This document shows positions 38,654 to 55,952 of a DNA stretch of 64,000 bases, piece after piece (position 1 is the first letter of the stretch; each line of letters opens with the position of its first letter). The notes below the pieces were generated by a model that saw nothing but the letters and a program-made list of their open reading frames with translations, made no database searches and was not told the DNA's origin. The position numbers and the translations under genes are program-made. Origin of the DNA: an uncultured Actinomycetota bacterium (GTDB lineage Bacteria; Actinomycetota; Actinomycetes; JAHEKZ01); NCBI GenBank assembly GCA_963829525.1, contig CAWHIJ010000003.1:608001-672000 (forward strand). Direction: 5' to 3'.

Positions 38654-39628
38654 TCAGCCGACCTTGGCCTTGCGGGTCTCCTCGATGATGGCCGGAAGCA
38701 CCTTGCCAATGTCGCCGATGATGGCGTAATCGGCGTAGCCCATGATCGCTGCCTCGGGGTCGGTGTTGATGACGATCATCGTCTTGGAGTTACGACAGCC
38801 GGCGATGTGCTGGGTCGCACCGCTGATGCCACAGGCGATGTAGAGGTCGGGTGCCACCTTGGTGCCGGTCTGCCCCACCTGCTCGGTATGCGGTCGCCAA
38901 CCGTTGCCGGTGACGACGCGCGAACACCCGATCGTGCCGCCAAGGAGCTCGGCGAGCTCTTCGAGTGGAGCAAAGCCATCAGCGCTGCCGACGCCGCGCC
39001 CACCTGAGACGATCACTTTGGCGTCGGCCAGCGACACACCGGTGGACTCCTCGGCCGCAGCTGCCGGCTTGGCAATCACGAGCAGGTCCGCGTCCGACAG
39101 TTGTGGCGTGAACTCTGCAACGGTTCCGGCGCCAGCCCCATCAGGCTCGGCGACAATCGTGTGCGGAACCAGGCTGACCAGTGCTGGCGAGCCGTGCAGG
39201 TTCGCCTCCTCCATGAGGCTGCCGCCCCATCGAGCGCGTTCCACCTTCGTCGGCGACCCAGGGGTGACCTTGACGCAGTCGGCGGCTACGGGCAGGTCGG
39301 TGATGGCACCCAGGTGGGCCAGCACCTCGTTTCCGCGCGGTGATCCGGTTGCCAGGACCACCGATGCCTCGGTGCGCGAGGCGACCTCGGCGGCTGCGCG
39401 CGCCGACGCAAGTGGGGCGTAGTCGGTCAGCCGGTCATGGACGGCGATATGCACGGTCGCGACGCCGTGCGCTGCGAGGGCCTCCGCAACTCCGCTGCCG
39501 TCGGCGCCGACGACCAGAGCATCGAGAGACTCACCGGTCGACGCCGCGAGCGCGCGTCCGTACGTGACGGCTTGAAGGGACAACTCGTCGAGCTGTCCAT
39601 GGTCGTGGTCGACAAGAACCAGCACCAT
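38654..39628 (-). CDS. etfA: Electron transfer flavoprotein alpha subunit
   Basis: VSGGRG, QVGQTG..V.PDLYIACGISGATQH and INTDPEA. Confidence 0.96.
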   Translation of the reverse strand: MVLVLVDHDHGQLDELSLQAVTYGRALAASTGESLDALVVGADGSGVAEALAAHGVATVHIAVHDRLTDYAPLASARAAAEVASRTEASVVLATGSPRGNEVLAHLGAITDLPVAADCVKVTPGSPTKVERARWGGSLMEEANLHGSPALVSLVPHTIVAEPDGAGAGTVAEFTPQLSDADLLVIAKPAAAAEESTGVSLADAKVIVSGGRGVGSADGFAPLEELAELLGGTIGCSRVVTGNGWRPHTEQVGQTGTKVAPDLYIACGISGATQHIAGCRNSKTMIVINTDPEAAIMGYADYAIIGDIGKVLPAIIEETRKAKVG

Positions 39629-39629
39629 C

Positions 39630-40385
39630 TCAGATCACTCCGATCTGCTTGAAGATCTCGACGACAGCAGGAGCAGCCTCGGGGCCATTGCCCAGGACCT
39701 GCGCCTGCTTGGCCTCTGTGACCGGAACCTCGAGCCTGGTCTTCTCCAGCTTCGACTCCGGGCGCTCGGGGTTGCGGTGTTCGATCGGCTTCTTCTTCGC
39801 GCGGATCCGGCCGGGTACCGACGGATAGCGCGGGATGTTGAGACCGTCGAGCACGGTGACGACCGCGGGCAGGGGCACCTCGTAGAACTCGCGTCCGGTC
39901 TTCACCGGGCGCTCGAAGGTGGCCTTGCCCTCCTCGACCGTGATCCCCTTCACGCCGGTGACGATGGGGCGTCCCAGCTTGTGCGCCACCCGGATCCCGA
40001 CCTGGTAGCCGCTGGCGTCGGCCGACTCGTTCCCCATGATGACAAGGTCGAAGTCGCTCTCGTCCTCGTTGATCGCCTCGGCGATGGCTGACGCCGTCGC
40101 CTGAGGGTCCCACTCCTGGCCGTCGGTCTCGATCAGGATTCCGCGATCGGCGCCGATCGCCATCTGCTCGCGGATCTGCTCTTCGGCCTCAGGCGGACCG
40201 AGGGTGAGCACAGTGACGCTGCCGCCATGCTTCTCGACAATCCGCACCGCTTCCTCGACCGCCACCTCTTCGTGCGGACTGATCGTGAAGCCGAGCTTGG
40301 CCGTCTCTATGTCGCGGCCGTCCTCGGTGATCGTGAACTTGCCCCCGGAAAGGGGGACGCGCTTGATGCAGACCATTACGTCCAT
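39630..40385 (-). CDS. etfB: Electron transfer flavoprotein beta subunit
   Basis: VCIKRVP, AVEEA, GADRG, GNESAD and PRYPS. Confidence 0.95.
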   Translation of the reverse strand: MDVMVCIKRVPLSGGKFTITEDGRDIETAKLGFTISPHEEVAVEEAVRIVEKHGGSVTVLTLGPPEAEEQIREQMAIGADRGILIETDGQEWDPQATASAIAEAINEDESDFDLVIMGNESADASGYQVGIRVAHKLGRPIVTGVKGITVEEGKATFERPVKTGREFYEVPLPAVVTVLDGLNIPRYPSVPGRIRAKKKPIEHRNPERPESKLEKTRLEVPVTEAKQAQVLGNGPEAAPAVVEIFKQIGVI

Positions 40386-42904
40386 CAGGAGAGAATCCGC
40401 TCATTCTTGGGGTCGAACAGGGGCGTGGCCCCAGCGACGGCAACGGTCACCGGGTAGTGCTCGCCGAGGTACTCGACGACGAGCTTGGTGCCTTCGACGG
40501 CGTACTCCGGCGGCAGGTAGCTCATCAGCACGTGCTTGCCTATCGACGGTGCTGAGCCGGCGCTGGTGACGAACGAACGACGTCCGTGTGCGTCGGTGAT
40601 CGGCTGCTTGTCGGGTGTGAGGATCGGCTCCTTGCCCATCATGTACCGCTTCGCGCCGGTGCTGCTCGTGTGGTCGTCGACCGTGAGCGAGCACAGCTTG
40701 GCTACCGGGTCTTCATCGCGGTGCTTGAGGTGCGCCGTCTTACCGATGAAGTCAGCCGCCTTGATCTTTGGTGGCGCCATGCCGGCCTCGACCACATTGA
40801 ACTCGGTCTCGAGCTCGGTACCGAACGCGCGGTAGCCCTTCTCGATGCGACCGGTCGTGCCGTAAACACCGATGCCGACGGGGATCAGGCCGTGTTCCTG
40901 TCCGGCGTTCCAGAGTGCGTCCCACAGTTGGGCGCCCTGTTCCATCGGGACGTAGAGCTCCCAACCGAGGTCGCCGACGTAAGAGATGCGCGACGCCAGA
41001 ACCTTCAACGGTCCGATCTCGATCGTCCTGCAAGTGCCGAACTTGAAGCCCTCGTTCGAGACGTCGTCGCCGGTGATGGATTCCAGGATCGTGCGTGCGT
41101 TCGGGCCCCAGATGCCGAGGGTGGTGAGTGACGAGGTGAGATCGGTGATCTGTGCGGTGCCGTCAGCGGGCAGGTGGTCTCCGAACCACTTGAGGTCGGC
41201 CATCCCGTGTGCGCCGCCAGTGACGACCCGGAAGTGATCGTGTGCGAGGCGCATCACCGTGAGGTCGGACTTGAACCCGCCATTGGCTGACAGAACGGGT
41301 GTGTAGACCACACGGCCGACTGGCACGTCCATCTGCCGCATGCAGACGCCCTGCAAGGCATCGAGCGCACCTGGCCCCTGGATGTCGAACTCGACGAACG
41401 CGGTGAGGTCTACCAGGCCGGCAGTCTCGCGCATCTGCAAGTGCTCGGCGTTGATGATCGGCGACCACCACCGTGACTCCCACTCCGCCGTGCGAGGCAT
41501 GACGGCGTCACCGAACTTATCGACTAGACCAGCGTTGCTCTCGTACCAGAACGCACGTTCCCAACCCGCGGTTTCGTAGAACTCCGCGCCGAGTGCCTTC
41601 TGACGCTCGTAGTACGGCGACAGTCGAACGTTGCGGTTGGACGCCCACTGCTCGTTCGGGTGCACGATTCCGTAGGTCTTGTTGAAGCCCTCGGCGGTGC
41701 GCTCCTTGATGTGCTTGCGCGTCTTCTGGTGGTCGTAGAAGCGGGCGATGTCGGACGCCTGGAGGTCGATCTCGGAGTCGCCGAGCACCATCCACTCCGA
41801 CACCGCCTTGCCGATGCCGGGGCCCTCCTTGATCCAGACTGCTGAGACCGACCAGAGGTTCTTCACCTCGGGAGTTTCACCGAGCAGTGGCATGCCGTCG
41901 GGCGTCAATGAGAGCAGGCCGTTGATGGCGTACTTCTGGCCGACCGTTTCGTCGCCGACGATTTCGGGCATCAACTCGAGCGCCTGCTCGTACTGCAGCT
42001 CGAAGTCTTCGGCAGTGAACGGGAACTCGGTGGGGGACAGCTGGGCCTCTTCAACCGAGGGGAGCTCCTCCGGGTCGTGCAAGATCGCGCGGTGTGCGTA
42101 CGAGCCGATCTCAAGACCGTTGCCGTGCTGGCGCTCGTACATGTTGGTGTCCATGTCGCGCACGATCGGGTGCTCGATGTCTCCCTTGGCATCGGCGAAG
42201 CGCGGTACTGGGCCGACGTCGATCATCTGGTGGACGGCGGGAGTCAGCGGGATCGACGCTCCAGCCATCTTGGCCAGGCGCGGTCCCCACAGGCCAGTCG
42301 CGATGACGACGTACTCGGCATCGATGGTTCCCTTGTCAGTCTCGACCGCCTTGATCTGGCCGTCCTCGACGACCATGCCGGTGACCTCTGTGTTGGCAAA
42401 GGTCTGCAGCGCCCCCATGTCCCGAGCCTTCTCGCGCATGATGGTGCCGGCGCGCAGCGAGTCGACGACGCCGACGCCCGGTGTGTAGAAGCCACCGAGA
42501 ATGACGTCGGGGTCCATGTAGGGGACGAGTTCGACGCACTCTGCCGGTGTGAGCATCCGGCAGCCGTCGATGCCGAAGGACTTCGCCGACTGCATGCGGC
42601 GCCACAGCTCCTGCATGCGCTCCTCGGTGCGGGCTACCTCGATGCCTCCGCACTCGGTGAAGACGCCCATCTCTTTGTACTGACGGACGCTGTCGAACGT
42701 CAGCAGAGCCATCTCTTTGGCGTGGTCCACCGGGAAGATGAAGTTCGATGCGTGGCCGGTGGAACCACCCGGGTTGGGCAGCGGACCCTTGTCGATCTGC
42801 ACGAGGTCGGTCCAGCCGAGGCGGGCCAGGTGGTATGCCATCGAGTTGCCGACGATGCCAGCACCGATGATGACGGCCTTCGCCTGCGAGGGGAGGGTGC
42901 TCAT
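40385..42904 (-). CDS. Dimethylglycine dehydrogenase/oxidase-like flavoprotein (DAO + GcvT domains)
   Basis: IIGAGIVG, GGSTGHA (His at the covalent FAD site), TPDG.PLLG, GWER, SYVGDLGWE and RIEKGY; coupled to etfB. Confidence 0.9.
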   Translation of the reverse strand: MSTLPSQAKAVIIGAGIVGNSMAYHLARLGWTDLVQIDKGPLPNPGGSTGHASNFIFPVDHAKEMALLTFDSVRQYKEMGVFTECGGIEVARTEERMQELWRRMQSAKSFGIDGCRMLTPAECVELVPYMDPDVILGGFYTPGVGVVDSLRAGTIMREKARDMGALQTFANTEVTGMVVEDGQIKAVETDKGTIDAEYVVIATGLWGPRLAKMAGASIPLTPAVHQMIDVGPVPRFADAKGDIEHPIVRDMDTNMYERQHGNGLEIGSYAHRAILHDPEELPSVEEAQLSPTEFPFTAEDFELQYEQALELMPEIVGDETVGQKYAINGLLSLTPDGMPLLGETPEVKNLWSVSAVWIKEGPGIGKAVSEWMVLGDSEIDLQASDIARFYDHQKTRKHIKERTAEGFNKTYGIVHPNEQWASNRNVRLSPYYERQKALGAEFYETAGWERAFWYESNAGLVDKFGDAVMPRTAEWESRWWSPIINAEHLQMRETAGLVDLTAFVEFDIQGPGALDALQGVCMRQMDVPVGRVVYTPVLSANGGFKSDLTVMRLAHDHFRVVTGGAHGMADLKWFGDHLPADGTAQITDLTSSLTTLGIWGPNARTILESITGDDVSNEGFKFGTCRTIEIGPLKVLASRISYVGDLGWELYVPMEQGAQLWDALWNAGQEHGLIPVGIGVYGTTGRIEKGYRAFGTELETEFNVVEAGMAPPKIKAADFIGKTAHLKHRDEDPVAKLCSLTVDDHTSSTGAKRYMMGKEPILTPDKQPITDAHGRRSFVTSAGSAPSIGKHVLMSYLPPEYAVEGTKLVVEYLGEHYPVTVAVAGATPLFDPKNERILS

Positions 42905-42954
42905 GGCTTCCCTTTCGTTTCGTTCTTCTGCGATGTGGAGATGGACGGGTCTGA

Positions 42955-43617
42955 CTACAACGACCGGCGGATCGACCCTTCGAATCCGTCGACGTGGGTG
43001 TGCATGGTGGACGCGGCACGATCGGCGTCCCCGTCGCGGATGGCTTCAAGGATGGCGCGGTGCTCGAGGACAGCGTCCTCGAGGTGGCTGACCTTGTCGA
43101 GAGCCAGGAACCAAATGCGAAGCGCGTGCATGTAGTGCTCGTCGAGCACCGACTCCAGGAAGCTGTTGTGCGCAGCCCGGTAGACGAATCGGTGGATGCG
43201 CTGGTCGATCTCGATGAGTCGGCGTCCGGCTGGCTTGACGCTGACCGCGTCGAGCTCGTCGAAGAGGGCCTCCATCTCGACCCGGTCGCCGTCGGTCAGT
43301 CGCTGGGCGGCCAGCTGGGCGGCGAACGGCTCGAGCACGCACCGGACTTCGGAGAGCGAAGCGAGGTCGCGGGCGTCAGCCGGCGCAACAAACATGCCGC
43401 GGCGCGGGTAGACCTCGACGAGCTTGGCCTGGGCCAACGCCCGAAGTGCCTCACGAATCGGGGTGCGGCCGAGTCCGAGTCGGTCCATCAGCTCAGGTTC
43501 GTCGACCAGGCTGCCCGGGGGGAGCTCCAGGGTGACGATCAGCTCGCGCAGCGCGTAGTACGCCTGCTCAGACTGCGAGCGGGCGTCGGGCTGAAGGATC
43601 TCGACCGGGGAGGTCAC
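42955..43617 (-). CDS. GntR (FCD) family regulator
   Basis: AYYALRELI, GLGRTPIREAL and EHRAIL. Confidence 0.93.
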   Translation of the reverse strand: MTSPVEILQPDARSQSEQAYYALRELIVTLELPPGSLVDEPELMDRLGLGRTPIREALRALAQAKLVEVYPRRGMFVAPADARDLASLSEVRCVLEPFAAQLAAQRLTDGDRVEMEALFDELDAVSVKPAGRRLIEIDQRIHRFVYRAAHNSFLESVLDEHYMHALRIWFLALDKVSHLEDAVLEHRAILEAIRDGDADRAASTMHTHVDGFEGSIRRSL

Positions 43618-43979: not shown

Positions 43980-44843
43980 TCAGGCCTTCGCTGCGGCTTC
44001 CTTGGCACGGTGCTGCTGGATCCAGGCCGCGCCCCACTCGTCGTGACCGAGCATGAGGTCAGCCCCCTTGACTGCGGTCACGACCTGCGGAGTGCGGGCG
44101 TCCATGATGGCGCTGGTCAGACCAGCGCGCATCGCCATCGGGATGAAGACAGCGTTCAGCGTGTGACGGTCGGGCATCCCGAAGGACACGTTCGACGCGC
44201 CGAGCGTCATGTTCACACCAATCTGGTCGCGAATCATGCTGATGGCCTCCATGGTGCGGTCGGCGTGCAGCGAGTCTGCGCCGATCGGCATCGCCAGCGG
44301 GTCGATGACGATGTCCTCGAGCGGGATGCCGTACTTCGTCGTCGCGAGGTCGACGAACTTCTTGGTCAGCTCGACGCGGCGGTCGGGGTCGATCGGTATC
44401 TCGAACTCGTCGTTGGGCAGCGCGATAATCGCGGCGTTGTGACGCTTGACCAGCGGCAGGATGAGGTCCATGCGCTCGTCCTCGACCGTCACCGAGTTCA
44501 CCAGCGCCTTGCCTTCATAGGCGCCAAGGCCAGCCTCGAGGGCCTCGACGACCGACGAGTCGATGCAGAGTGGCATGTCGGTGAGCGACTGCACCAGCTT
44601 GACCGCCTTGGCCAGCAGCTCGGCCTCGTCGGTCAGCGGAACGCCCATGTTGACGTCGAGCACCATGGCGCCGCCGGCAACCTGGGCGGCGACGTCGGTC
44701 TCGATGGCCGACAGGTCACCGGCCCGCAGCTGCTCCTGGAACGCTTTGCGTCCGGTCGGGTTGATGCGCTCGCCGATGATGCAGAACGGCTGGTCGTCAC
44801 CGATGATGACCTGCTTGCTCGCCGAGCTGAGAACCGTGTGCAT
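43980..44843 (-). CDS. Pterin-binding methyltransferase (methylcorrinoid:tetrahydrofolate, MtgA/AcsE-like)
   Basis: IIGERINPTG, LDVNMG, CIDSS, VNS, IDPL and GASNVSFG.P.R. Confidence 0.88.
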   Translation of the reverse strand: MHTVLSSASKQVIIGDDQPFCIIGERINPTGRKAFQEQLRAGDLSAIETDVAAQVAGGAMVLDVNMGVPLTDEAELLAKAVKLVQSLTDMPLCIDSSVVEALEAGLGAYEGKALVNSVTVEDERMDLILPLVKRHNAAIIALPNDEFEIPIDPDRRVELTKKFVDLATTKYGIPLEDIVIDPLAMPIGADSLHADRTMEAISMIRDQIGVNMTLGASNVSFGMPDRHTLNAVFIPMAMRAGLTSAIMDARTPQVVTAVKGADLMLGHDEWGAAWIQQHRAKEAAAKA

Positions 44844-44902: not shown

Positions 44903-45361
44903 TTACGGCCGCGGCGAGTGGAACGGTGTCTGGAAGGGCCCCTCGTACTCAACGAGCGAGAGCTCGGGGTTGACTTCGTCAGCGGTGGCCAGGGACTTGC
45001 CCTGCCAGCCCGCCGGGGTCTCGCGGTCGCGCCCGGTGAGGAGGTTGGTCCAGGACGCTTCCCCCTCAAGCTGGTTGTTGACCGGAGGTCGCAGCTCGTG
45101 GATGTGCTCGCGCCAGGACTTCGGAATCAACGGGAGTGTGCGGCTGCGTTCCTCGGCCTTGACCCAGACACAGCGCATCTCAGGGACGACCTCGCAGTGG
45201 CCGTTCTCCCGCACGCCGCCGCAGGGCCCGTTGCGAAGCGTCTTGGGACAGGTCATCGGACATGTCATGCCGGTGGAGTGCAGGACACACTGGCCGCACA
45301 TGCGGCAGTCCCACACGGGTCCCTTGACCGCGTGCTCGATGATGGGCAGGAGTTTGGGCAT
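44903..45361 (-). CDS. MTHFR C-terminal (MetV-like) Cys-rich protein
   Basis: CRMCGQC..CPMTCPK.LRNGPCGG..CE..C.W. Confidence 0.88.
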   Translation of the reverse strand: MPKLLPIIEHAVKGPVWDCRMCGQCVLHSTGMTCPMTCPKTLRNGPCGGVRENGHCEVVPEMRCVWVKAEERSRTLPLIPKSWREHIHELRPPVNNQLEGEASWTNLLTGRDRETPAGWQGKSLATADEVNPELSLVEYEGPFQTPFHSPRP

Positions 45362-45365
45362 GTGA

Positions 45366-46031
45366 TCAGGCCCTGGTCAGGGCGCGTCGCTTCTCGAGGA
45401 GTTCTTTGGCGCGGCGGACGGCGGTGGAGGCGTCAGCGGCGTACCCGTCAGCACCGACGGCGTCGGCGTACTCCTGGGTCACCGGGGCACCCCCCACCAT
45501 CACGATCACCTTGTCCCGCAACCCAGCCTTCTCCAACGCGTTGATGTTCGCCTTGAACATCGGCATCGTCGTGGTCAAGAACGCACTGAACCCGACAATG
45601 TCGGGGTTGTGCTCCTCGATCGCGGCAACGAACTTCTCCGGAGCCACCTGCACCCCCAGATCAATCACCTCAAACCCAGCACCCTCCAACATGATGTTGA
45701 CCAAGTTCTTCCCAATGTCATGCACATCACCCTTGACCGTGCCCATCAAGAACTTGCCCACCGTCTCAGCACCAGTAGCAGCCAACAACGGCCGCAACAC
45801 CTCCAACGCCCCCGACATCGCCCGACCAGCGATCAACATCTCCGGAACGAAGAAGTCACCCCGCTCAAACCGGGCCCCCACCTCCTCCAACGACGGAATC
45901 AACGCCTCGAACAACAACGTCTCCGGACCCATCCCCATCCCAAGACCGGCATTGGTCAGCTCCAACACCGCAGGAGCATTGCCCACCAACGTCTCATCAA
46001 ACAAGCCCTTCAAAATCTCCTCAGGCGTCAT
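45366..46031 (-). CDS. Corrinoid (cobalamin-binding) protein of a methyltransferase system
   Basis: Cap domain FVPEML, DxHxxG motif GDVHDIGKN, SAFLTTT, VGGAPV and GADGY. Confidence 0.95.
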   Translation of the reverse strand: MTPEEILKGLFDETLVGNAPAVLELTNAGLGMGMGPETLLFEALIPSLEEVGARFERGDFFVPEMLIAGRAMSGALEVLRPLLAATGAETVGKFLMGTVKGDVHDIGKNLVNIMLEGAGFEVIDLGVQVAPEKFVAAIEEHNPDIVGFSAFLTTTMPMFKANINALEKAGLRDKVIVMVGGAPVTQEYADAVGADGYAADASTAVRRAKELLEKRRALTRA

Positions 46032-46804: not shown

Positions 46805-46852
46805 GGAGTTCCTGTTCTCGGTCTGCCGGTGCTGCGAGACGGGTGTGGGCAA

Positions 46853-46891
46853 TGGAACATCGAGTTCTACTATGTGGAACTCAGATTCCAC
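46853..46891. promoter_or_regulatory. Overlapping palindromes, probable IclR operator between divergent iclR and the MttB-family gene
   Basis: GAGTTCTAC-TAT-GTGGAACTC (46862-46882) and GTGGAA-CTCAGA-TTCCAC (46874-46891). Confidence 0.65.
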
Positions 46892-48430: not shown

Positions 48431-48478
48431 CAACGTGAAGGGTGGCTGGGGCTATAGCCCCAGCCACCCTTCACGTTG
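48431..48478. terminator. Perfect 48-bp palindrome between convergent genes (bidirectional terminator)
   Basis: CAACGTGAAGGGTGGCTGGGGCTA|TAGCCCCAGCCACCCTTCACGTTG. Confidence 0.85.
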
Positions 48479-48490
48479 TGCTATGTCTGG

Positions 48491-49468
48491 CTAGCCGTTC
48501 AGCCAGGCGTCCACCTTGTCGGGGTTGTCATCGATCCACTGCTGCGCAGCATCTTCGGGTGCCATCCCGTCTGCAGCGATGGCCTTGGCAACGGAGTTCT
48601 GGTCGTCGTTGGTCCAGGTGAAGTTCTTGACCAGGTCAGCGGCCGGGCTCCCGGAGTTCATGAACTCAGTCGCGGCGACCTTGTTCAGTGGATAGGGCGG
48701 GTAGTCGCACGCGACCTTGGCCGGATCGGCATCGCACCCATCGGTGTAGGGGGGCAGGTCGACCTTCACCAGCGGCACCTCGGAGAGGAACCACTGCGGC
48801 TCGTAGAAGTATCCGATCAGGAACTCCTTGTTCTGCTCGGCCTTGCGGAACGCCTGGATCAAAGCGGCTTCACTACCTGCGAAGACGACCTCGAAGTTCA
48901 GACCAAGGTTCTGCACGAGGGCCTCGTCGTTGGTGACGAAGGATGGGTCGCCGTCGAGCAGCTGGCCTTTGTCGCCGGTCTCTGCCGTGGCGAAGTCACT
49001 GGCGTAGTTGTTGAGGTTTTCCCAGTTGTCGACGATGTCAGGCTTGGCCTCGGCCAACCACGGCGGGATGTACCAGCCGATGACGCCCTGGTTGCCCTGG
49101 CTGCCGACGTCTTCAGCAACACCCTGCTGGTCGATGTACTTCTTCTCGAGGTCGGGGTGGCCCCAGTTCTCGATGACGACATCAACATCACCGGTGGCAA
49201 AGCCCTGCCAGGAGATCTCCTCCTTGAGGTCCTTGTAGTTGACCGTGCATCCCAGTTTGGTTTCCGCGACCTGGCCCACGACGTAGGCGGATGCCTCGTA
49301 GCCAACCCACGGGTTGACCGCCATATTCATCTCGCCGCAGTCTGCGCCGGAGGTGCTGCCGCCACCCGCGGACTCATTGATGTCGCTACCGCCACAGGCG
49401 GCCAGCGTGAGGCCGGCGGCGACGGCGACGGCCGTCATACGTCCGGCCCGCTTCTTCGTTACACGCAC
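48491..49468 (-). CDS. proX: Glycine betaine/choline ABC transporter substrate-binding lipoprotein (ProX/OpuAC-like)
   Basis: LAAC lipobox, NPWVG, ENW, GWYIP and YFYEPQW; GAAGGAG RBS before GTG 49468. Confidence 0.88.
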   Translation of the reverse strand: MRVTKKRAGRMTAVAVAAGLTLAACGGSDINESAGGGSTSGADCGEMNMAVNPWVGYEASAYVVGQVAETKLGCTVNYKDLKEEISWQGFATGDVDVVIENWGHPDLEKKYIDQQGVAEDVGSQGNQGVIGWYIPPWLAEAKPDIVDNWENLNNYASDFATAETGDKGQLLDGDPSFVTNDEALVQNLGLNFEVVFAGSEAALIQAFRKAEQNKEFLIGYFYEPQWFLSEVPLVKVDLPPYTDGCDADPAKVACDYPPYPLNKVAATEFMNSGSPAADLVKNFTWTNDDQNSVAKAIAADGMAPEDAAQQWIDDNPDKVDAWLNG

Positions 49469-49508
49469 TTCTTCTCCTTCGGTCGGGCCGCACGGTTGCG
49501 GCGTCGGT

Positions 49509-51680
49509 TCACGCCTTCTCAGCGCGTCCATAGCGCGCCGCAGTGTGGACGGTGATGCGGTCGAGCATGATCCCGAGCGCCGTGATGGCAATGGCTGCTG
49601 CCAGTCCCTTGCCGTAGAGCTCTCCTTGCGAGAACCCGCTGATCACGAGGAAGCCGAGACTGCCACCGCCGACCAGCGCGCCGATCACCACCATGGATAG
49701 CACAAAGAGCAACCCCTGGTTGGCTGCCAACACCATCGATCCCTTCGACATCGGCAGCTGTACCTTGCTGATCATCTGCCATCGGCTAGATCCGATGGCC
49801 TGTGCTGCCTCGACCGTGGTCGGTGCAACGCTGCGGATTCCGTCAGCGGCGATCTTGATCGAGACGGGAGCCGCGTAGAGCACAGCAGCGGCGATTGCCA
49901 GGAACTTACCCGGCGGGAACAGCAACAGCGCGGGGATGAGGTAGACCAGCGATGGCATGGTCTGCAGCAGGTCGAGAATGGGGCGTAGTGCGGAGTCCAC
50001 TCGGTGGCTGCGGCCCATCCAGGTTCCGATCACGACCCCAAAGATCATGACGGCGGCCGTCGCGACCAGTGTCATCGACAGGGTCACCATCGAGTCTTGC
50101 CACAGGCCGACGGCGAAGATGAGGGAGAGGCACACAGCAGTCGGGAGCAGCGCCTCGGCGGCGCCGAGGTACGCACCCGCGGCGAGGAGCGCCACGACGA
50201 CCAACCAGTAGGGGATCCACGGAATATCGGGCACCTGGGATGCGTAGTAGCCCGCTCCGAGAACTCCGGCGACGCAGAGTGCGCCACCACCGATGACTCG
50301 CGACCGATCAGCTTGGCCAGCTCCCCCGAGCAGCGCAGCAATCGCAAGGACGGCAAGTGCGACCAGCCACCAGGGTGAGTTCGCCATCAGGTCTTCGAGG
50401 GGGTTGAGCACCCAAACGGTGACGGTGTCGTTGACCCAAGTCGTGAAGGAACCAACGGCATCAGTGAATGTCTTCGCCCAGTCATTGACGCGGTCGGCGA
50501 TCTGCTGCCCGAGGTCAGACTTAGGGAAGACCGACCAGCTCAGCTGGCTGTGGGACACGTAGATGCAGACCAGGGTGATGGCGCCGAGCACGCCGAGCAC
50601 GATGCGGCGCTGCTTTTCACTGCTGCCGGACCTGGCAGTCATCTCCGCTCGCTGTCCCGCGCGCACCGCACCGCGGTCGAGCAGAATGGCCAAGATCACC
50701 AGGCACATCCCGGCGACGAATGCGACGCCGATGTTGAGGATGGTGAGAGCTCGCACGATTGGGAGTCCGAGCCCAGGACCGGCGATGAAGGCTGCGATAA
50801 CGGCCATCGAGAGGGCAGCCATGATGGTCTGGTTGAGCCCGACGATGATCGTCCGCCGAGACATCGGCAGCTGTACTTTGGCCAGCAGCTGTTGCGACGT
50901 TGAGCCCATAGATGTGGTGGCCTCCACGGTCGTTGGCGAGACCGTGCCCAACGCGTGTGCGGTGATGCGTACGAGGGGCGGCAACGCGTAGATCGTGGTC
51001 ACCACCACCGCTCCTGCATTGCCGATTCCGAAGAGCAGTGCGAGTGGCGCCAGATAGGCGAAGGACGGCATCGTCTGCATGGCGTCCAACACCGGCGTTA
51101 TGCCGGCCGAGGCTCTCCGGCTACGAAACATCCAGATGGCGAGCGGGATACCGATGAGCACGCAGATGGTGACCGATACGCCGGTAATGACCAGGGTGTC
51201 GATCGAGTCTTCCCAGTAACCCAGGTATCCCACTGCCAACATGGTGAATAGGCTGAAGACTGCGATGCGTATGCCGCTCAAGGCATAGGCAACAAGGACC
51301 ACGAGTGCGACGACACCGACCCAGCCGATCTGGGCGACTTGGAGCGGGCGGTCAGGGTCACTGACGAACACCTGTTGCAGCGTGGTCACCACCCAGTTGA
51401 GCCCGTCGCCGATCCAGATGAAGGGCTTGAGCAACCAGCTGTCGTTGAACTTTGCGTCCTGGATGTTGCCGTAGAGATCCGTCAGCCACTGTTGGAAGCC
51501 GGTGACTTCGGCATTGGGAAGGTCTTGGGTGGCTCGCCCCTGGAGCAGCTTTGCCAGGACCGCCCAGACAATGAGAACGATCCCGAGCGCCATCCAGCGA
51601 CGACGGTTCGTTCTCTCGTCCGGTGGGGGTGGTACCTCCTCGACCGGATGCTCCAGCTCGGCGAGCTCGATGGTCGTCAC
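49509..51680 (-). CDS. proW: Betaine ABC transporter permease, tandem ProW fusion
   Basis: Two copies of P.LD..QTMP, EA...G...Q...KVQLP and LSM.VI. Confidence 0.92.
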
Positions 51681-52750
51681 GACGGAGTCTCCTCCGCGAC
51701 GATGACGCGCAGAATGTCGTCCTGGTCGACGACGCCGAGCAGCTGCCCGTTCTCGACCACTTTGACGGGGTCAGCCGAGTCGAGCACGCGCCGGGCGGCG
51801 TCTCGGACGATGGTCCCCGGCGCCATCTCGGGCCCAGTCATGGCTTCGTCGGGACGTGGGGGCCGCATCACCCAGCTCAAGTTCAACACGTGCGAGCGCG
51901 GCACCTCGCTGACAAAGTCACGAACGTATTCGTCAGCCGGTGCACCGACGACCTCGGCCGGCGTCCCCATCTGCACGAGTGCGCCGTCGCGCATGATCAG
52001 TATTCGGTCACCGAGCTTGAGCGCCTCCGCGAGGTCGTGCGTGATGAAGACCATCGTCTTGCCCACCTCGTGGTGCAGCCGGATGACTTCGTTCTGCATA
52101 TCCCGCCGGATCAAGGGGTCGAGAGCGGAGAACGGCTCGTCGAAGAGCAAGACCGAGGGGTCGACCGCGAGTGCCCTGGCCAGGCCGACTCGCTGTTGCA
52201 TTCCACCCGAGAGCTGGTCGGGGTAGGCGTTCTCGTTACCGGAGAGCCCGACGAGGTCGACCATCTCCTGCGCCCGAGTCCGGCGATCGGACTTCGACAC
52301 TCCCCTGACCTCGAGTCCGTAGCCGATGTTGTCGATCACCTTGCGGTGGGGGAGTAGGCCGAAGTGCTGGAAGACCATGGAAACGTGGTGACGGCGGAGT
52401 TCGCGCAGTCGTCCTTCTGACATGGCAACGACGTCTTCGCCATCAATCGTTACGCGGCCGGCGGTCGGCTCGATCAGTCGGGTGAGGCAGCGCACCAGCG
52501 TCGACTTCCCCGAGCCGGACAGCCCCATCACCACGAAGACTTCGCCGGACGCGACGTCGAAGCTCACGTCACGGACGGCCGCAGTGCAGCCGGTCTTCGC
52601 GAGCAGCTCCGATCGCGAGAGATCGGCGTCCGGTGAGCCGACGATCTTGTCGGCCCTCGGACCGAATACCTTCCAGAGGCTCCGAACCGTCAGGGCAGGC
52701 TGGCCGTCAGTGGACGCGGCAGCGCCCCGCTCGTCGATCGTCGCCGTCAT
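51677..52750 (-). CDS. proV: Betaine ABC transporter ATP-binding protein
   Basis: [24 protein letters not shown] and [12 protein letters not shown]. Confidence 0.95.
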
Positions 52751-54447
52751 GAGGCAGCTCCTTCGTTACGGGGATCGCCTGGTGGATAGAGCGGGGTGCC
52801 CTCGCGGTAGCGGTAGAACGGGGCATCGGACGGTGCGAGCGGTGCGTCACCGTTGATCAGGTCGGCGGCCTTCTCGGCGAGCATCATCACCGGCGCATAG
52901 ATGTTGCCGTTGGTGACGTATGGGAACGAACTTGCGTCAACAACGCGCAGGCCTTCGACGTCGTAGACCTTCATCGACGCCGGATCGAGAACAGCGTCAT
53001 CGCCAACGCCCATCTTGGCGGTGCATGAGGGGTGGAGCGCGGTCTCGGCGTCCTCGCGCACCCACTCGAGAATCTCTTCCTCGGTCTCAACCGATGGTCC
53101 TGGGGAAAGCTCGCCATCGTTGAAAGGGCCGAAGGCGGGCTGGGTGAGAATGCTGCGCGCCACCTGGATCGCTTCGACCCACTCACGTCGATCCTGGTCG
53201 GTGGAGAGGTAGTTGAACTGCATCGACGGGTGCTCCATCGGGTCGGTGGAGCGGATCTTCACCCAGCCGCGCGCATCGGAGTACATCGGACCGATGTGCA
53301 CCTGGTAACCGTGGCCCTTGGTCGGTGAGGTGCCGTCATACCTGATGGCGATCGGTAAGAAGTGGAACATCAAGTTGGGATAGTCGACGTCGTCGTTGCT
53401 ACGGGTGAAGCCGCCGCCCTCGAAGTGGTTGGTGGCACCGAGCCCCTTGCGCTGGAAGAGCCATTGGGCGCCGATGCCTGGCCGCTTCCACCAGGCCAGC
53501 CCTGGCGCAATCGAGACCGGCAGCTTGCTGGCGTACTGGATGTAGACCTCCAGGTGGTCCTGGAGGTTGGCGCCAACGCCGGGAAGGTCGGCGACCACGG
53601 GAATCCCGAGCGACTGGAGATGGCTGGCGTCGCCGACTCCGGACAGCTGCAGGAGCTGAGGTGAGTTGATGGCGCCGCCACAGAGAATGACTTCGCCGGC
53701 CTTCACCGAACGCTTCATGCGTCCGGCACGGACGTACTCGACGCCGACGGCACGCTTACCCTCGAAGACCACCTTGGTGGCGTGAGCGAGAGTTTCAACA
53801 TCGAGGTTCTTACGGCCCATAACCGGGTGCAGATAGGCACGGGCTGCGCTGAGCCTGCGGCCTTTGTGGATGTTGCGGTCGAACCTGGCGAAGCCTTCTT
53901 GCCGGTAGCCGTTCACGTCATCGGTGAGGGGGTAGCCAGCCTGCTGTGCAGCTTCGAAGAAGGCGCCGAAGAGGGGGTTGGTGGCCGGTCCGCGTTCGAG
54001 TACGAGCGGGCCGCTGCCGCCGCGCCATTGGTCAGCACCAGCGAGGCAGGTCTCCATGCGCTTGAAGTAGGGCAGGCAGTGAGCAAAGTCCCAGTTCTCC
54101 ATGCCCTTGTCGGCGCCCCAGCGTTCGTAGTCCATGGGGTTGCCGCGCTGGAAGATCATCCCGTTGATGCTGCTGGAGCCGCCGAGCACCTTGCCGCGGG
54201 CGTGAAAGACACGGCGGTTGTTCATGTACGGCTCGGGGTCGGTCTCGTAACGCCAGTCGTAGAACCGGCTACCGATCGGGAAGGGCAACGCGGCCGGCAT
54301 GTGAATGAAGGGGTCCCAGATGAAGTCAGGGTGGCCCGCCTCGAGCACCAGAACTGAGGTGCCGGGGTCGGCGCTCAGGCGGTTGGCCAGTGCAGATCCG
54401 GCCGACCCACCGCCGACGATGACGATGTCGTAGCGCTCATCGCTCAT
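52747..54447 (-). CDS. betA: Choline dehydrogenase
   Basis: [34 protein letters not shown] and GNIYAP. Confidence 0.95.
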
Positions 54448-54482
54448 CTTGCTGCTCCATCACTCGAAGTCCGTTCTGTCAT

Positions 54483-55952
54483 TCAGCCACTGAACCAGCG
54501 CTGAGGGGCTGGCGCGGTGTTACGCCAGATGTGCTTGGTCTCTTGGTACTCCGCGAGTCCGTGGCGTCCGAGCTCGCGACCGAAGCCGGACTGCTTGTAG
54601 CCGCCCCACTCTGCTTGGGGGACGTACGGGTGGTAGTCGTTGATCCAGACGGTGCCTGCGCGAAGCCCGGCAGCCACGCGGTCGGCCTTTGCGGGGTCAG
54701 AAGTCCAAACGGCGCCCGCCAGGCCGTAGTCGGTGTCGTTGGCCAGACGCAGGGCCTCGGCCTCGTCGGTGAACGTCTCGACAGTCAGCACAGGCCCGAA
54801 CGACTCTTCGCGGACAACCTGCATGTCCGCTGTACAGCGGTCGAACACCGTTGGTGGGTAGTAGTAGCCGCCGGCGAGCTCGGGGGCATCGGGCCGGGCT
54901 CCTCCACAACGAAGCACCGCTCCTTCGGCAATGCCTGCCGCGACGTAGGCCTCCACCTTCGCGCGGTGCCCTTCGGAGGTGAGGGGACCGGTCTCGGCCC
55001 TGGCGTCGAAGGGACCGCCCATGCGGATCGTCGACGCCCGACGAACAAGCTCGTCGACGAAGTCGTCGTGGAGCGACTCCTCGATCAGCAGCCGAGCGCC
55101 CGCCGAGCACACCTGGCCCGAGTGGAGGAACACTGCGGTTAGTGCCATGTCGAGTGCTGCATCACGGTCGGCGTCAGCGAAGACGATGTTCGGGTTCTTG
55201 CCGCCGAGCTCGAGTGAGACCTTCTTCACGGTGGGAGCGGCCGCCGCCATGATGATGCGTCCGGTGACCAGTCCGCCGGTGAAGGAGACCAGGTCTACGT
55301 CGGGGTGAGTCGACAACAGGGCGCCGACGTTAGGCCCTGTGCCGAGCACCAAGTTCGCGACGCCCGGTGGCAATCCGGCGGCATCTAGCTCGCGCATGAG
55401 CAGGATGGCCGTTGACGGCGTCAGCTCACTCGGCTTGAGGACGAAGGTGTTGCCGGCGGCCAACGCTGGAGCAACTTTCCACGAGGTCTGCAGCAATGGG
55501 TAGTTCCACGGCGTGATCAGCCCGCAGACGCCGACCGGTTCGTGAACAATGCGGCTTTCGACATCGGGACGGTCCACTTCGATGGCGCGGGAGTCGAGGT
55601 CGGTGGCGAGCTTGGCGTAATAGCGGAATACCGAGGTGATGTCGTCCATGTCGTACTCGGCCTCGACGAGGCGCTTGCCGGTGTCGAGGGCCTCCGCCCT
55701 CGCGAACTCGGCCCGGTGTCTCTCAAGGGCGTCGGCGACACGGTCTAAAAGGGCACCGCGCTCAGCGGGAGAAGTGGTTGGCCACGGTCCAGTGTCAAAT
55801 GCGGTCCGAGCGGCCGAGATCGCGTCTTCGGTGTCCGCGGCCGTGCCTTCATCAACGGTTGTCACCAGTGAGCCGTCAGCGGGGCAGCGAATCTCTCGCG
55901 TGTTCTGTTCACGCGCGCTGGTCCATGCCCCGCCGATGAAGAAGTCGGGCAC
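54483..55952 (-). CDS. betB: Betaine-aldehyde dehydrogenase
   Basis: PWNYP, FTGG, LELGGK, GQVCSAG, EESFGP and GGYKQSG; directly upstream of betA. Confidence 0.9.
   Translation of the reverse strand: MPDFFIGGAWTSAREQNTREIRCPADGSLVTTVDEGTAADTEDAISAARTAFDTGPWPTTSPAERGALLDRVADALERHRAEFARAEALDTGKRLVEAEYDMDDITSVFRYYAKLATDLDSRAIEVDRPDVESRIVHEPVGVCGLITPWNYPLLQTSWKVAPALAAGNTFVLKPSELTPSTAILLMRELDAAGLPPGVANLVLGTGPNVGALLSTHPDVDLVSFTGGLVTGRIIMAAAAPTVKKVSLELGGKNPNIVFADADRDAALDMALTAVFLHSGQVCSAGARLLIEESLHDDFVDELVRRASTIRMGGPFDARAETGPLTSEGHRAKVEAYVAAGIAEGAVLRCGGARPDAPELAGGYYYPPTVFDRCTADMQVVREESFGPVLTVETFTDEAEALRLANDTDYGLAGAVWTSDPAKADRVAAGLRAGTVWINDYHPYVPQAEWGGYKQSGFGRELGRHGLAEYQETKHIWRNTAPAPQRWFSG

What the first reader, a model, noticed from the sequence alone, without database searches (positions are those of the whole stretch)
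38654..55952. Choline-to-sarcosine island using cobalamin-dependent betaine demethylation in a respiratory actinobacterium
Seen: betB-betA-proVWX, a non-Pyl MttB-family gene, an IclR-corrinoid-MetV-pterin methyltransferase operon and a GntR-DMG dehydrogenase-etfBA operon, inserted between menD and menF. Known: MtgB/MtgC/MtgA moves a betaine methyl via a corrinoid to THF in anaerobes such as Desulfitobacterium, and related systems occur in marine alphaproteobacteria. Many aerobes instead use GbcAB oxygenase or BHMT, neither of which is in this window. Inference: an O2-independent route choline -> betaine -> DMG -> sarcosine that captures C1 units on THF and sends electrons via ETF to the quinone pool. 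I know of no characterised actinobacterial example, but I cannot search the literature.
Basis: partly seen in the sequence, partly recalled or inferred. Interest (0 to 1): 0.8.

Follow-up and report, generated by a model that had tools for sequence, protein, structure and literature searches.

The report
B12-dependent betaine demethylase island, actinobacterial
This is a real gene island that most likely lets an oxygen-respiring actinobacterium break down choline and glycine betaine with a vitamin-B12 enzyme system already described in marine bacteria in 2025, and in this genus the same parts probably also make methionine.

Summary

This kind of system was shown genetically in aerobic Proteobacteria in 2025 (PMC12478193; bioRxiv 10.64898/2025.12.19.695462). 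This scan has already reported it in at least seven other actinobacterial genomes. It is a new member of a known kind.

Three points are specific to this genome:
- **The module is incomplete in the window.** MetF, the RamA-type activase and DUF1638 sit 273 kb away beside a second copy of the corrinoid gene, 98% identical in DNA. The two copies evolve in concert in all 5 well-assembled genomes of the genus.
- **No other methionine synthase was found.** The genome lacks MetH, MetE and canonical MetF but makes homocysteine. The island's corrinoid and pterin parts probably double as a split methionine synthase.
- **No de novo corrin synthesis.** A ring-synthesis marker is missing, while a riboswitch-controlled salvage operon is present.

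No biochemical test was possible.

The parts
54483..56084 (-). betB, betaine-aldehyde dehydrogenase family. This is the longest ORF; the true start may lie further in.
   Evidence: PF00171 564 bits. TIGR01804 BADH 594.5 bits, below its cut-off of 668.6.
52747..54447 (-). betA, choline dehydrogenase (GMC family). It overlaps proV by 4 nt.
   Evidence: TIGR01810 827 bits, cut-off 732. Coordinates.
48491..52750 (-). ProV ATPase (51677-52750), a fused double ProW-type permease of 723 aa (49509-51680) and an OpuAC binding protein (48491-49591): a betaine/choline ABC importer.
   Evidence: TIGR01186 358 bits (cut-off 327), PF00528 in two stretches, PF04069 129 bits.
48431..48478 (.). Perfect 24+24-nt inverted repeat between the convergent mttB and opuAC genes; likely a two-way terminator.
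   Evidence: the repeat finder: 100% complementary, 0 nt between the arms.
46981..48420 (+). Non-pyrrolysine MttB-family methyltransferase; proposed glycine betaine:corrinoid methyltransferase (MtgB-like).
   Evidence: PF06253 632 bits, no internal stop. PDB matches: 4yyc 447 bits, D. hafniense MtgB 398 bits. Y98, R312, H348, W352 and G356 are invariant in 120 orthologues.
46853..46891 (.). Array of GGAAC/GTTC half-sites in the iclR-mttB intergenic region, including GTTCTACTATGTGGAAC at 46864-46880; a candidate IclR operator next to a conserved GATAGTAGGAT box.
   Evidence: Core conserved in 9 of 9 genomes of the family. GTTCY-N5-GTGGAAC occurs 3 times in the genome: here, upstream of locus B, and once inside a gene. 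The motif was defined post hoc.
46028..46891 (-). IclR-family regulator, divergent from mttB. The true start is probably near 46804.
   Evidence: PF01614 plus PF09339. Present in 54 of 55 long loci.
45366..46031 (-). Corrinoid (B12-binding) protein, MtgC-like, with DxHxxG at residues 102-107 (motif recalled from memory).
   Evidence: PF02310 111 bits plus PF02607. NF047996 MtgC_2 203 bits, below its cut-off of 370. A gene-sized duplicate lies at G000:C3:927803-928474, 98.2% identical in DNA.
44903..45361 (-). MetV-like small cysteine-rich protein; proposed partner of MetF, which is encoded at locus B.
   Evidence: PF12225 85 bits. 8 invariant Cys in 23 sequences. The complex model with MetF supports binding.
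43980..44843 (-). Pterin-binding methyltransferase (methylcorrinoid:THF; MtgA/MtgD-like). It is the only pterin-binding module found in the genome with the MetH model.
   Evidence: PRK07535 310 bits, cut-off 259. Best PDB match is MeTr of acetogens, 147 bits. It is the only match to MetH positions 319-591 in the genome.
42955..43617 (-). GntR/FCD regulator heading the dimethylglycine operon.
   Evidence: PF07729 plus PF00392.
40385..42904 (-). Dimethylglycine dehydrogenase/oxidase-family flavoprotein with a THF-binding GcvT domain. Its stop overlaps the etfB start by 1 nt.
   Evidence: DAO, FAO_M, GCV_T and GCV_T_C domains. PDB 1pj5 DMGO 558 bits, DMGDH 316 bits.
38654..40385 (-). etfB (39630-40385) and etfA (38654-39628), electron-transfer flavoprotein.
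   Evidence: PF01012 and PF00766. Co-located with the DMGDH-like gene in 22-25 of 55 long loci.

Best explanation
The island encodes uptake of choline and betaine, followed by stepwise breakdown.

Proposed pathway:
1. BetA and BetB oxidise choline to glycine betaine.
2. The MttB-family enzyme moves one methyl group from glycine betaine onto the Co(I) corrinoid protein, giving dimethylglycine.
3. The pterin-binding methyltransferase passes that methyl group to tetrahydrofolate.
4. The 839-aa flavoprotein removes the next methyl group as methylene-THF and hands electrons to EtfAB.

The system is completed by a second locus 273 kb away. It holds a near-identical corrinoid gene copy, MetF (which pairs with the island's MetV to interconvert methyl- and methylene-THF), a RamA-type reductive activase and DUF1638.

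This genome lacks MetH, MetE and canonical MetF but makes homocysteine. The same corrinoid protein and pterin methyltransferase, together with a stand-alone homocysteine methyltransferase, therefore most likely also act as a split methionine synthase, as in Ruegeria pomeroyi.

What is shown: gene identities, synteny, the duplication and the gene losses. What is inferred: the substrate, the direction of flow, the ETF link and the double role.
For: **Gene families and operon structure**
- Families were assigned. Gene overlaps of 1-4 nt are visible.
- In 55 actinobacterial loci of at least 15 kb, these genes lie next to the MttB orthologue: IclR 54, corrinoid 53, pterin methyltransferase 51, RamA 49, DUF1638 46, DMGDH-like 26, betA 23.

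**Substrate**
- The D. hafniense MtgB betaine-binding residues Y97, R312 and H348 are kept. They are invariant in 120 orthologues.
- The genome's second MttB paralogue has G at the Y97 position.

**Precedent**
- In P. inhibens the mtgB1 gbcAB double mutant cannot grow on betaine, and the mtgC mutant is a methionine auxotroph (bioRxiv 10.64898/2025.12.19.695462, passages).
- In R. pomeroyi the mtgC and mtgD mutants show both defects (PMC12478193).

**Second locus**.

**MetF-MetV complex model**
- Score 0.68; best of 3 controls 0.00.
- That mark was reached by 116 of 157 solved complexes and by 2 of 215 mismatched pairs. These counts hold only roughly, because my own alignments were used.
- The runs agree in at least 91% of contacts. 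The partner's pLDDT is at least 74.

**Double role**
- No MetH over the cut-off: best 150 bits against 1011.
- No PF01717 (MetE) match.
- One MTHFR gene only and one pterin module only.
- MetY at 812 bits, cut-off 703.
- A BHMT/MtgE-like protein at 264 bits.
- MetH found in 0 of 14 genomes of the genus, against 5 of 6 in sister genera.

**Aerobic respiration**: COX1 at 532 bits.
Against: **Substrate**
- F356 of D. hafniense MtgB, one of the two aromatic residues that hold the quaternary amine, is G here.
- In a FastTree of 99 sequences the protein is not in the half that holds the cluster NCBI names glycine betaine methyltransferase.
- NCBI names the actinobacterial orthologues only 'trimethylamine methyltransferase family protein'.

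**Scores below family cut-offs**
- The corrinoid protein is below the NCBIfam MtgC cut-offs (203 against 370).
- BetB is below its cut-off.

**ETF link**
- No ETF-QO domain was found.
- The nearest solved relative of the DMGDH-like enzyme is an oxidase.

**Other possible routes for betaine**: a BHMT-like protein and five distant GbcA-like Rieske proteins exist in the genome.

**Double role**
- 46 of 50 other actinobacterial carriers of the cluster keep MetH, so the double role is not general in the phylum.
- The genome is 97% complete, so absences are not proof.

**MetF-MetV model**: the pass may reflect likeness to a solved MetFV assembly, which I recall from memory. phmmer found no solved relative of MetV.

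**Expression**: RNA evidence is weak.
Confidence: 0.7

Rival explanations
1. The corrinoid system is purely catabolic. The genus is either a methionine auxotroph or makes methionine some other way, for example with the MmuM-type enzyme from S-methylmethionine, or by a direct betaine-homocysteine reaction of the 293-aa BHMT-like protein.
For: - An MmuM-type enzyme is present (366 bits, cut-off 215).
- The best family hit of the 293-aa protein is 'betaine--homocysteine S-methyltransferase' (264 bits).
- 46 of 50 other carriers keep MetH, so the cluster does not need an anabolic role.
- The genome is small (2.96 Mb) and lacks a corrin ring-synthesis marker.
Against: - O-acetylhomoserine sulfhydrylase is present, so the pathway up to homocysteine is kept.
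- The 293-aa protein is below the BHMT cut-off (264 against 338). PMC12478193 reinterprets that family as the homocysteine module (MtgE) of a split synthase.
- The protein is kept in 12 of 14 genomes of the genus.
- The genus-wide loss of MetH coincides with the operon split and the concerted evolution of two corrinoid copies.
Confidence: 0.3
2. The MttB-family enzyme acts on another methylated amine, such as proline betaine, carnitine, gamma-butyrobetaine, choline or trimethylamine. Glycine betaine is then demethylated by another enzyme in the genome.
For: - F356 is not conserved.
- The protein lies outside the clade named MtgB by NCBI.
- The MttB superfamily has many specificities (PMC13080624).
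- Five GbcA-like Rieske oxygenases and a BHMT-like protein are in the genome.
Against: - The gene lies between the genes that make betaine and those that consume dimethylglycine. This linkage recurs in other loci: betA in 23 of 55 and DMGDH-like in 26 of 55.
- Y, R and H of the betaine site are invariant.
- None of the Rieske proteins approaches the GbcA cut-off (at most 196 bits against 670), and they match only the N-terminal half of the model.
- The nearest solved relative (4yyc, 447 bits) has the same GWLEGG stretch.
Confidence: 0.12
3. The 839-aa enzyme is an oxygen-using dimethylglycine oxidase like that of Arthrobacter, and the adjacent etfBA serves other dehydrogenases. The route would then not be oxygen-independent.
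For: - The best solved match is dimethylglycine oxidase, 558 bits against 316 for ETF-dependent mammalian DMGDH.
- No ETF-QO domain was found.
- A second etfBA pair exists at C3:2326030-2327793.
Against: - The enzyme's stop codon overlaps the etfB start by 1 nt, and etfA follows 1 nt after etfB.
- The trio recurs in 22-25 of 55 loci.
Confidence: 0.25

Closest known systems
Aerobic MtgBCD(E) glycine betaine demethylase and split methionine synthase of Ruegeria pomeroyi DSS-3 and Phaeobacter inhibens (PMC12478193; bioRxiv 10.64898/2025.12.19.695462)
   Same: - The part list matches: an MttB-family MtgB, a stand-alone corrinoid protein, a pterin methyltransferase, a RamA-type activase, DUF1638, a MetF paralogue, and a separate BHMT-like homocysteine module not linked to the cluster.
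- The host is aerobic.
- MetH and MetE are absent from the genome.
   Different: - The phylum differs (Actinomycetota).
- A MetV partner for MetF is present.
- IclR and GntR regulators are present.
- The dimethylglycine step is linked to ETF.
- The corrinoid gene is in two copies that evolve in concert at two loci.
- No corrin ring synthesis was found.
- Most actinobacterial carriers keep MetH (46 of 50).
- No reference sequence from these organisms could be obtained, so orthology of the MttB protein to MtgB1 was not tested.
MtgB/MtgC/MtgA of Desulfitobacterium hafniense (structures 2qne and 9yce; PMC13080624)
   Same: - TIM-barrel MttB-family enzyme without pyrrolysine, matching at 398 bits over the full length.
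- Y97, R312 and H348 are conserved.
- A corrinoid protein and a methyl-THF methyltransferase are encoded alongside.
   Different: - F356 is G here.
- It falls in a different half of the superfamily tree from the Clostridia cluster named MtgB.
- The host respires oxygen, and the methyl-THF is presumably oxidised instead of feeding the Wood-Ljungdahl pathway.
4yyc, 'putative trimethylamine methyltransferase' (solved structure; I recall the source as Sinorhizobium meliloti, not checked here)
   Same: It is the best solved match, at 447 bits, and has the same HxAGWLEGGLVS stretch at the position of F356.
   Different: No function is given in the entry. The chain is about 30 residues longer at the N-terminus.
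MetF-MetV methylene-THF reductase of acetogens
   Same: - A PF12225 cysteine-rich small subunit with a divergent MetF.
- The two genes are adjacent in 12 of 55 loci.
- The complex model passes.
   Different: In this genus the two genes sit at different loci. No Hdr, Mvh or Rnf-type partner was looked for, and the electron carrier is unknown.
Dimethylglycine oxidase of Arthrobacter globiformis (1pj5) and mammalian ETF-dependent DMGDH (4pab)
   Same: Same four-domain architecture, with covalent-type FAD and THF-binding GcvT domains.
   Different: The gene is translationally coupled to etfBA, which argues for ETF as the acceptor. The acceptor cannot be read from the sequence.

Membership tests
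MttB superfamily, non-pyrrolysine branch | Full-length PF06253 domain and no in-frame amber codon | tested here: met
   632 bits over profile positions 21-500; no stops inside.
MtgB (glycine betaine:corrinoid methyltransferase), as defined on the D. hafniense enzyme | Carboxylate-binding R312 and H348, and aromatic Y97 | tested here: met
   They align to R312, H348 and Y98 (residue numbering worked out). All three are invariant in 120 orthologues.
MtgB (glycine betaine:corrinoid methyltransferase), as defined on the D. hafniense enzyme | Second aromatic residue, F356 | tested here: not met
   It aligns to G356, which is invariant. An invariant W352 lies four residues upstream, and 4yyc is the same. 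Whether W352 fills the role could not be tested.
MtgB (glycine betaine:corrinoid methyltransferase), as defined on the D. hafniense enzyme | Falls in one clade with characterised MtgB, apart from MtcB, MtpB, MtyB and MthB | tested here: inconclusive
   In a FastTree of 99 rows, the only named reference (P0134, which NCBI names glycine betaine methyltransferase, Clostridia, 41% identical) lies in the other half.
MtgB (any clade) | [quoted passage not shown] | not testable with these tools
   This needs an enzyme assay.
Aerobic MtgBCD(E) system (PMC12478193) | MtgB, MtgC, MtgD, a RamA-type activase, DUF1638 and a MetF paralogue present; the homocysteine module (MtgE) unlinked | tested here: met
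   Window genes plus locus B. The 293-aa PF02574 protein is at C3:114590-115471.
Aerobic MtgBCD(E) system (PMC12478193) | Double role: no MetH or MetE in the genome, and one shared corrinoid/pterin module | tested here: met
   for this genome. MetH was found in 0 of 14 genomes of the genus. This is presence and absence of genes only; the function was not tested.
MetFV-type methylene-THF reductase | PF12225 subunit with conserved cysteines that binds a MetF subunit | tested here: met
   PF12225 at 85 bits and 8 invariant Cys. Complex model score 0.68, best of 3 controls 0.00; the mark was reached by 116 of 157 solved and 2 of 215 mismatched pairs; at least 91% of contacts agree; partner pLDDT at least 74. 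A model is not a measurement.
ETF-dependent dimethylglycine dehydrogenase | Four-domain architecture, with ETF as the electron acceptor | tested here: inconclusive
   The architecture is met and the gene is coupled to etfBA. The nearest solved relative is an oxidase, and no ETF-QO was found.
BetA/BetB choline oxidation | Scores over the equivalog cut-offs | tested here: inconclusive
   BetA scores 827 against 732 (met). BetB scores 594.5 against 668.6 (below).

The most novel reading that the evidence does not exclude
In this actinobacterial genus the betaine-demethylase parts have become the cell's only methionine synthase and its only methyl-THF/methylene-THF link. This happened after MetH, MetE and (in most members) canonical MetF were lost.

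The ancestral single operon was split into two loci. Each kept a copy of the corrinoid gene, and the copies are held nearly identical by gene conversion. Both loci carry the same operator-like palindrome.

The organism cannot make the corrin ring. Both its methionine supply and its C1 catabolism would therefore depend on B12 made by neighbours. This would be an independent evolutionary repeat of the MetH loss that the 2025 work proposed for marine Proteobacteria.
Probability: 0.45. Interest if true: 0.6.

Novelty: new member of a known kind. Interest (0 to 1): 0.4.

Why it matters
It extends the recently described aerobic, B12-dependent route of glycine betaine breakdown from marine Proteobacteria to Actinomycetota of sediments and soils.

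- The cluster is conserved in hundreds of species but rare phylum-wide. Three of 300 evenly sampled genomes carry it, against at least 591 matching stretches across all species representatives.
- This genus offers a natural experiment on the proposed link between betaine demethylation and methionine synthesis. MetH was found in 0 of 14 of its genomes but in 5 of 6 genomes of sister genera.
- It predicts an absolute need for external corrinoids. That bears on B12 cross-feeding in sediments.

Tried and rejected
- **Full phylogeny.** I used PDB alignments, 150 unnamed representatives and two name look-ups instead.
- **Tree method.** The IQ-TREE run timed out, so FastTree was used.
- **Operator search.** A crude palindrome, TGGAAC-N5-GTTCCA with up to 3 mismatches, is not enriched in the window: 26 matches against 19.9 expected. 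It is not enriched in locus B either: 7 against 6.2. The repeat finder found no operator-like repeat in the other island promoters. A shared regulon motif across all four island operons is therefore not supported. The narrower motif shared by the two corrinoid loci was defined post hoc, and its third site lies inside a gene.
- **RNA evidence.** Contigs of four metatranscriptome runs laid on 38600-56100 are mostly 90-95% alike, so they come from relatives. Only short pieces are near-identical: 234 nt with 3 differences, 249 with 6 and 200 with 8 on the corrinoid gene, and 176 with 5 on the pterin gene. They cannot tell the two corrinoid copies apart or prove transcription.
- **Habitat.** The labels of the DNA runs (freshwater sediment, sediment) were not followed further.
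- **Earlier findings by place.** The search of earlier findings by place returned nothing for this genome.
- **B12 riboswitches.** One riboswitch was found, and it is not at either corrinoid locus.
- **Second MttB paralogue.** Its neighbourhood holds no B12 genes, and its substrate stays open.
- **Supplements.** I did not look at the supplements of PMC12478193 (Dataset S2, genome lists). They may already list actinobacterial genomes.

Full report
**1. The observation**

The window is G000:C3:608001-672000, in a 2.96-Mb genome of 3 contigs that is 97% complete.

- **Unit 1, minus strand:** betB (54483-56084), betA (52747-54447; TIGR01810 827 bits, cut-off 732), proV, a fused double ProW-type permease of 723 aa, and OpuAC. 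The betA/proV and proV/permease junctions overlap by 4 nt.
- **Unit 2, plus strand:** the MttB-family gene. PF06253 scores 632 bits and there is no internal stop. The probable start is the ATG at 46981.
- **Unit 3, divergent from unit 2:** IclR, a corrinoid protein (PF02310 plus PF02607), a 152-aa PF12225 'MetV' protein, and a pterin-binding methyltransferase (PRK07535, 310 bits, cut-off 259).
- **Unit 4:** GntR, an 839-aa DAO/FAO_M/GCV_T/GCV_T_C flavoprotein, etfB and etfA, with a 1-nt overlap and then a 1-nt gap.

A perfect 24+24-nt palindrome lies between the convergent mttB and opuAC genes.

**2. Is the block an island?**

menD (35864-37804) and an isochorismate synthase (59216-61249) flank the block. 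The block also holds a P-type ATPase and an unassigned ORF. I compared the positions of menD, menF and the MttB orthologue in 20 genomes of the family.

- The block lies between the two men genes in five genomes of the window's genus and in two sister genera (G019, G016).
- menF and menD are direct neighbours in G017 and G014. In G017 the betaine cluster is 254 kb away on the same contig; in G014 it is on other contigs.

'Inserted between menD and menF' is therefore correct as a description of position. The arrangement is old, being shared by at least three genera. G+C is slightly lower in the block, 62-66% against 67-68%.

**3. What the MttB protein resembles**

- Against solved structures, the best match is 4yyc, a 'putative trimethylamine methyltransferase' (447 bits). 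D. hafniense MtgB follows (2qne/9yce, 398 bits). The pyrrolysine enzyme MttB is far behind at 129 bits.
- PMC13080624 (abstract, Results part 1 and Discussion read) shows by mutagenesis and a substrate-bound structure that Y97, F356, R312 and H348 hold glycine betaine. R312 and partly H348 are shared with enzymes for other acidic quaternary amines. The aromatic pair is not shared.
- I derived the chain numbering from the printed alignment. Y97, R312 and H348 align to Y98, R312 and H348 of the window protein. F356 aligns to G356.
- In 120 orthologues of at least 76% identity, Y98, R312, H348, W352 and G356 are invariant. 4yyc has the same GWLEGG stretch.
- The genome's second MttB paralogue (C3:464680-466086, 40% identical) has G at the Y97 position. 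It has no B12 genes nearby.

**4. Tree of the superfamily**

The library of 50%-identity representatives holds 8306 relatives at E up to 0.001. I built a FastTree from 99 sequences: 95 full-length proteins among the best 150 representatives, both proteins of this genome, and two actinobacterial orthologues.

- The window protein sits in a well-supported 8-row clade.
- That clade lies next to the clade of its own paralogue and a Dormibacteraeota cluster.
- The same half of the tree holds the 510-527-aa clusters whose named members are Alphaproteobacteria, Gammaproteobacteria/Gemmatimonadota and a Tara ocean sequence.
- The one cluster that NCBI names 'glycine betaine--corrinoid protein Co-methyltransferase' (Clostridia, 41% identical) is in the other half.

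Membership in the D. hafniense-type MtgB clade is therefore not shown. Placement with the proteobacterial MtgB1 could not be tested, because no reference sequence was available.

**5. Context across Actinomycetota**

A scan of one genome per species found at least 591 stretches encoding relatives. The best 80 are 69-97% identical. Nearly all bear actinobacterial labels, including Nocardioides, Candidatus Nanopelagicales, Acidimicrobiales, Streptosporangiaceae, Asanoa, Planobispora, Planomonospora, Phycicoccus and Trebonia. A few are labelled only as uncultured bacterium.

In the 55 loci of at least 15 kb, tblastn with this genome's proteins gave these counts next to the MttB gene:

| Gene | Loci of 55 |
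|---|---|
| IclR | 54 |
| corrinoid protein | 53 |
| pterin methyltransferase | 51 |
| RamA-type activase | 49 |
| DUF1638 | 46 |
| DMGDH-like | 26 |
| betA | 23 |
| MetV | 12 |
| MetF | 12 |

Under stricter thresholds the counts were etfB 25, etfA 22, betB 18 and OpuAC 15.

The usual actinobacterial operon is mttB, divergent from iclR-corrinoid-(metV-metF)-pterin MT-ramA-DUF1638. The distribution is patchy:

- 18 of 19 other genomes of the window's family carry the gene.
- 1 of 21 other families sampled in the class carries it.
- 3 of 300 evenly drawn genomes of the phylum carry it at E up to 1e-180.

**6. The second locus**

In this genome the RamA-type activase (615 aa; 2Fe-2S plus RACo domains; AcsV model 431 bits, below its cut-off of 800), DUF1638 and a MetF (PF02219, 85 bits) are not in the window. 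They lie at C3:927.8-931.8 kb, directly behind a second corrinoid gene.

- That copy is 98.2% identical in DNA over 672 bp. The match covers just the gene.
- In all five well-assembled genomes of the genus (G000, G001, G004, G005, G010) the split is the same. Locus A is mttB / iclR-corrinoid-metV-pterin MT. Locus B is corrinoid-metF-ramA-DUF1638.
- Four genomes of sister genera have one contiguous operon and one corrinoid gene.
- Within a genome the two copies are 98.3-99.2% identical. Between genomes of the genus they are 86-97% identical. In a maximum-likelihood tree the copies pair by genome in 5 of 5 cases, with support of 88-100. That is the signature of gene conversion.
- Fragmented assemblies of the genus show 0 or 1 copy, as expected when near-identical repeats collapse.

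**7. MetV and MetF**

MetV has 8 invariant cysteines in 23 sequences. It has no solved relative by sequence. I modelled its complex with the locus-B MetF, using my own alignments.

- The score was 0.68, against 0.00 for the best of 3 controls.
- That mark was reached by 116 of 157 solved complexes and by 2 of 215 mismatched pairs. The counts hold only roughly with my own alignments.
- At least 91% of contacts were shared between runs. The partner's pLDDT was at least 74.

The model supports binding but does not show it. If a like complex has been solved, the pass may reflect memory. The result ties the window's MetV to the MetF of locus B.

**8. Methionine**

The MetH model finds only separate pieces in this genome, with a best score of 150 bits against a cut-off of 1011:
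- the window's pterin methyltransferase, which is the only match to the pterin region;
- the two corrinoid copies;
- stand-alone homocysteine methyltransferases.

Other findings in this genome:
- PF01717 (MetE) gives no match.
- PF02219 gives one match only, the locus-B MetF. A canonical MetF of about 320 bits occurs in 9 of 20 genomes of the family but not here.
- O-acetylhomoserine sulfhydrylase is present (812 bits, cut-off 703), so homocysteine is made.
- There are three PF02574 proteins. The 293-aa one has 'betaine--homocysteine S-methyltransferase' as its best family (264 bits, cut-off 338). PMC12478193 reinterprets that family as MtgE. A second is MmuM-type (366 bits, cut-off 215). The third is weak.

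Across the family:
- MetH is over the cut-off in 0 of 14 genomes of the window's genus and in 5 of 6 genomes of sister genera.
- PF01717 gives only weak matches, 21-48 bits in 4 of 20 genomes.
- The 293-aa protein is found in 12 of 14 genomes of the genus and in 3 of 6 of the others.

Against a general link, 46 of 50 other actinobacterial carriers of the cluster have MetH, 39 of them over the cut-off. Those 50 were the long loci, not a random sample. The double role is thus a feature of this genus, not of the phylum.

**9. B12 and respiration**

- No CbiC was found.
- CobS is present.
- The single cobalamin riboswitch (32.9 bits, threshold 31.5) heads an operon. It encodes two proteins without a Pfam family (379 and 478 aa), an ECF-type ATPase fusion, an ECF membrane component, CobU, CobT and CobS.
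- The organism thus looks like a corrinoid salvager. With 97% completeness this is likely, not proven.
- A heme-copper oxidase subunit I is present (532 bits), alongside the men genes. This supports an aerobic, menaquinone-based respiration.

**10. Points against, or left open**

- No ETF-QO domain was found. The 839-aa enzyme's nearest solved relative is dimethylglycine oxidase of Arthrobacter, 558 bits against 316 for DMGDH. The route from ETF to quinone, and the oxygen independence of the pathway, are inferences from the coupling to etfBA.
- Five Rieske oxygenases have GbcA as their best family, but at 175-196 bits against a cut-off of 670, and only over the N-terminal half of the model.
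- Two paralogues of the 839-aa enzyme (33% and 32% identical) could take sarcosine further.

**11. Regulation**

- The iclR-mttB intergenic region carries GGAAC/GTTC half-sites about one helical turn apart (46854-46889). It also has a GATAGTAGGAT box. The core is conserved in 9 of 9 genomes of the family.
- The region upstream of the locus-B corrinoid gene is conserved in 5 of 5 genomes of the genus and holds a similar palindrome.
- The pattern GTTCY-N5-GTGGAAC occurs three times in the genome, against 0.57 expected from base composition. The sites are at these two promoters and once inside a gene. The pattern was derived from the two sites, so this is a lead and not a test.
- A broader palindrome is not enriched in the window.

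**12. What is known already**

- PMC12478193 (abstract, passages and section 7 read) showed in aerobic R. pomeroyi that MtgC and MtgD are needed both for growth on glycine betaine and for methionine synthesis. About 70% of marine genomes with MtgBCD lack MetH. Five percent of ocean mtgC reads were assigned to Actinomycetota.
- The preprint 10.64898/2025.12.19.695462 (passages read) showed that a P. inhibens mtgB1 gbcAB double mutant cannot grow on betaine.
- Five full-text searches listed no paper that characterises the system in an actinobacterium. This rests on titles, abstracts and term counts only.
- This scan has reported the same system on other actinobacterial DNA at least seven times, each time as a new member of a known kind. 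I reached the same reading before seeing those notes.

**13. Verdict**

What this genome adds:
- a genus-level loss of MetH and MetE, and of canonical MetF in this genome and in most genomes of the genus;
- a split operon with two corrinoid gene copies that evolve in concert;
- probable dependence on external corrinoids.

These make the double role directly testable in a second phylum.

Noticed in passing
G000:C3:464680-466086 (L004:9641-11095): A second MttB-family paralogue, 40% identical, is conserved across the family. It has G at the position of the betaine-binding Y97 and no corrinoid gene nearby, and its neighbours have no Pfam family. The substrate is unknown; it would have to use the same corrinoid protein.
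   Followed up: partly
G000:C3:1482446-1491654 (L130:4422-13654): The genome's only cobalamin riboswitch heads an operon. Its first two genes (379 and 478 aa) match no Pfam family. An ECF-type transporter and cobU-cobT-cobS follow. The two unknown proteins are candidate new corrinoid-uptake parts.
   Followed up: partly
window 49509-51680: The ABC permease is a 723-aa fusion of two ProW-type membrane domains (two PF00528 stretches).
   Followed up: no
window 48431-48478: A perfect 48-nt palindrome lies between the convergent mttB and opuAC genes.
   Followed up: no
G000:C3:1720236, 545971, 2759974, 2149311, 2819251 (L100-L105): Five Rieske oxygenase genes have glycine betaine monooxygenase GbcA as their best family, at 175-196 bits against a cut-off of 670. 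They may act on other N-methylated compounds.
   Followed up: partly
G000:C3:985568-988003 and C3:2386172-2388619: Two paralogues of the dimethylglycine enzyme (33% and 32% identical). The first lies near a glutamine-synthetase-like gene, an aldehyde dehydrogenase, a short-chain dehydrogenase and a choline/ethanolamine-kinase-like gene. Either could be a sarcosine or other amine dehydrogenase.
   Followed up: partly
window 37965-38651 and 56430-59207: An ORF of 228 aa with no family and a PMR1/SERCA-like P-type ATPase (702 bits, below its cut-off of 798) also lie between menD and menF. They travel with the block.
   Followed up: no
family-wide: Canonical MetF (about 320 bits) is present in 5 of 14 genomes of the genus and absent from the other 9. 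Those 9 include all five well-assembled genomes, which points to a further loss within the genus.
   Followed up: partly
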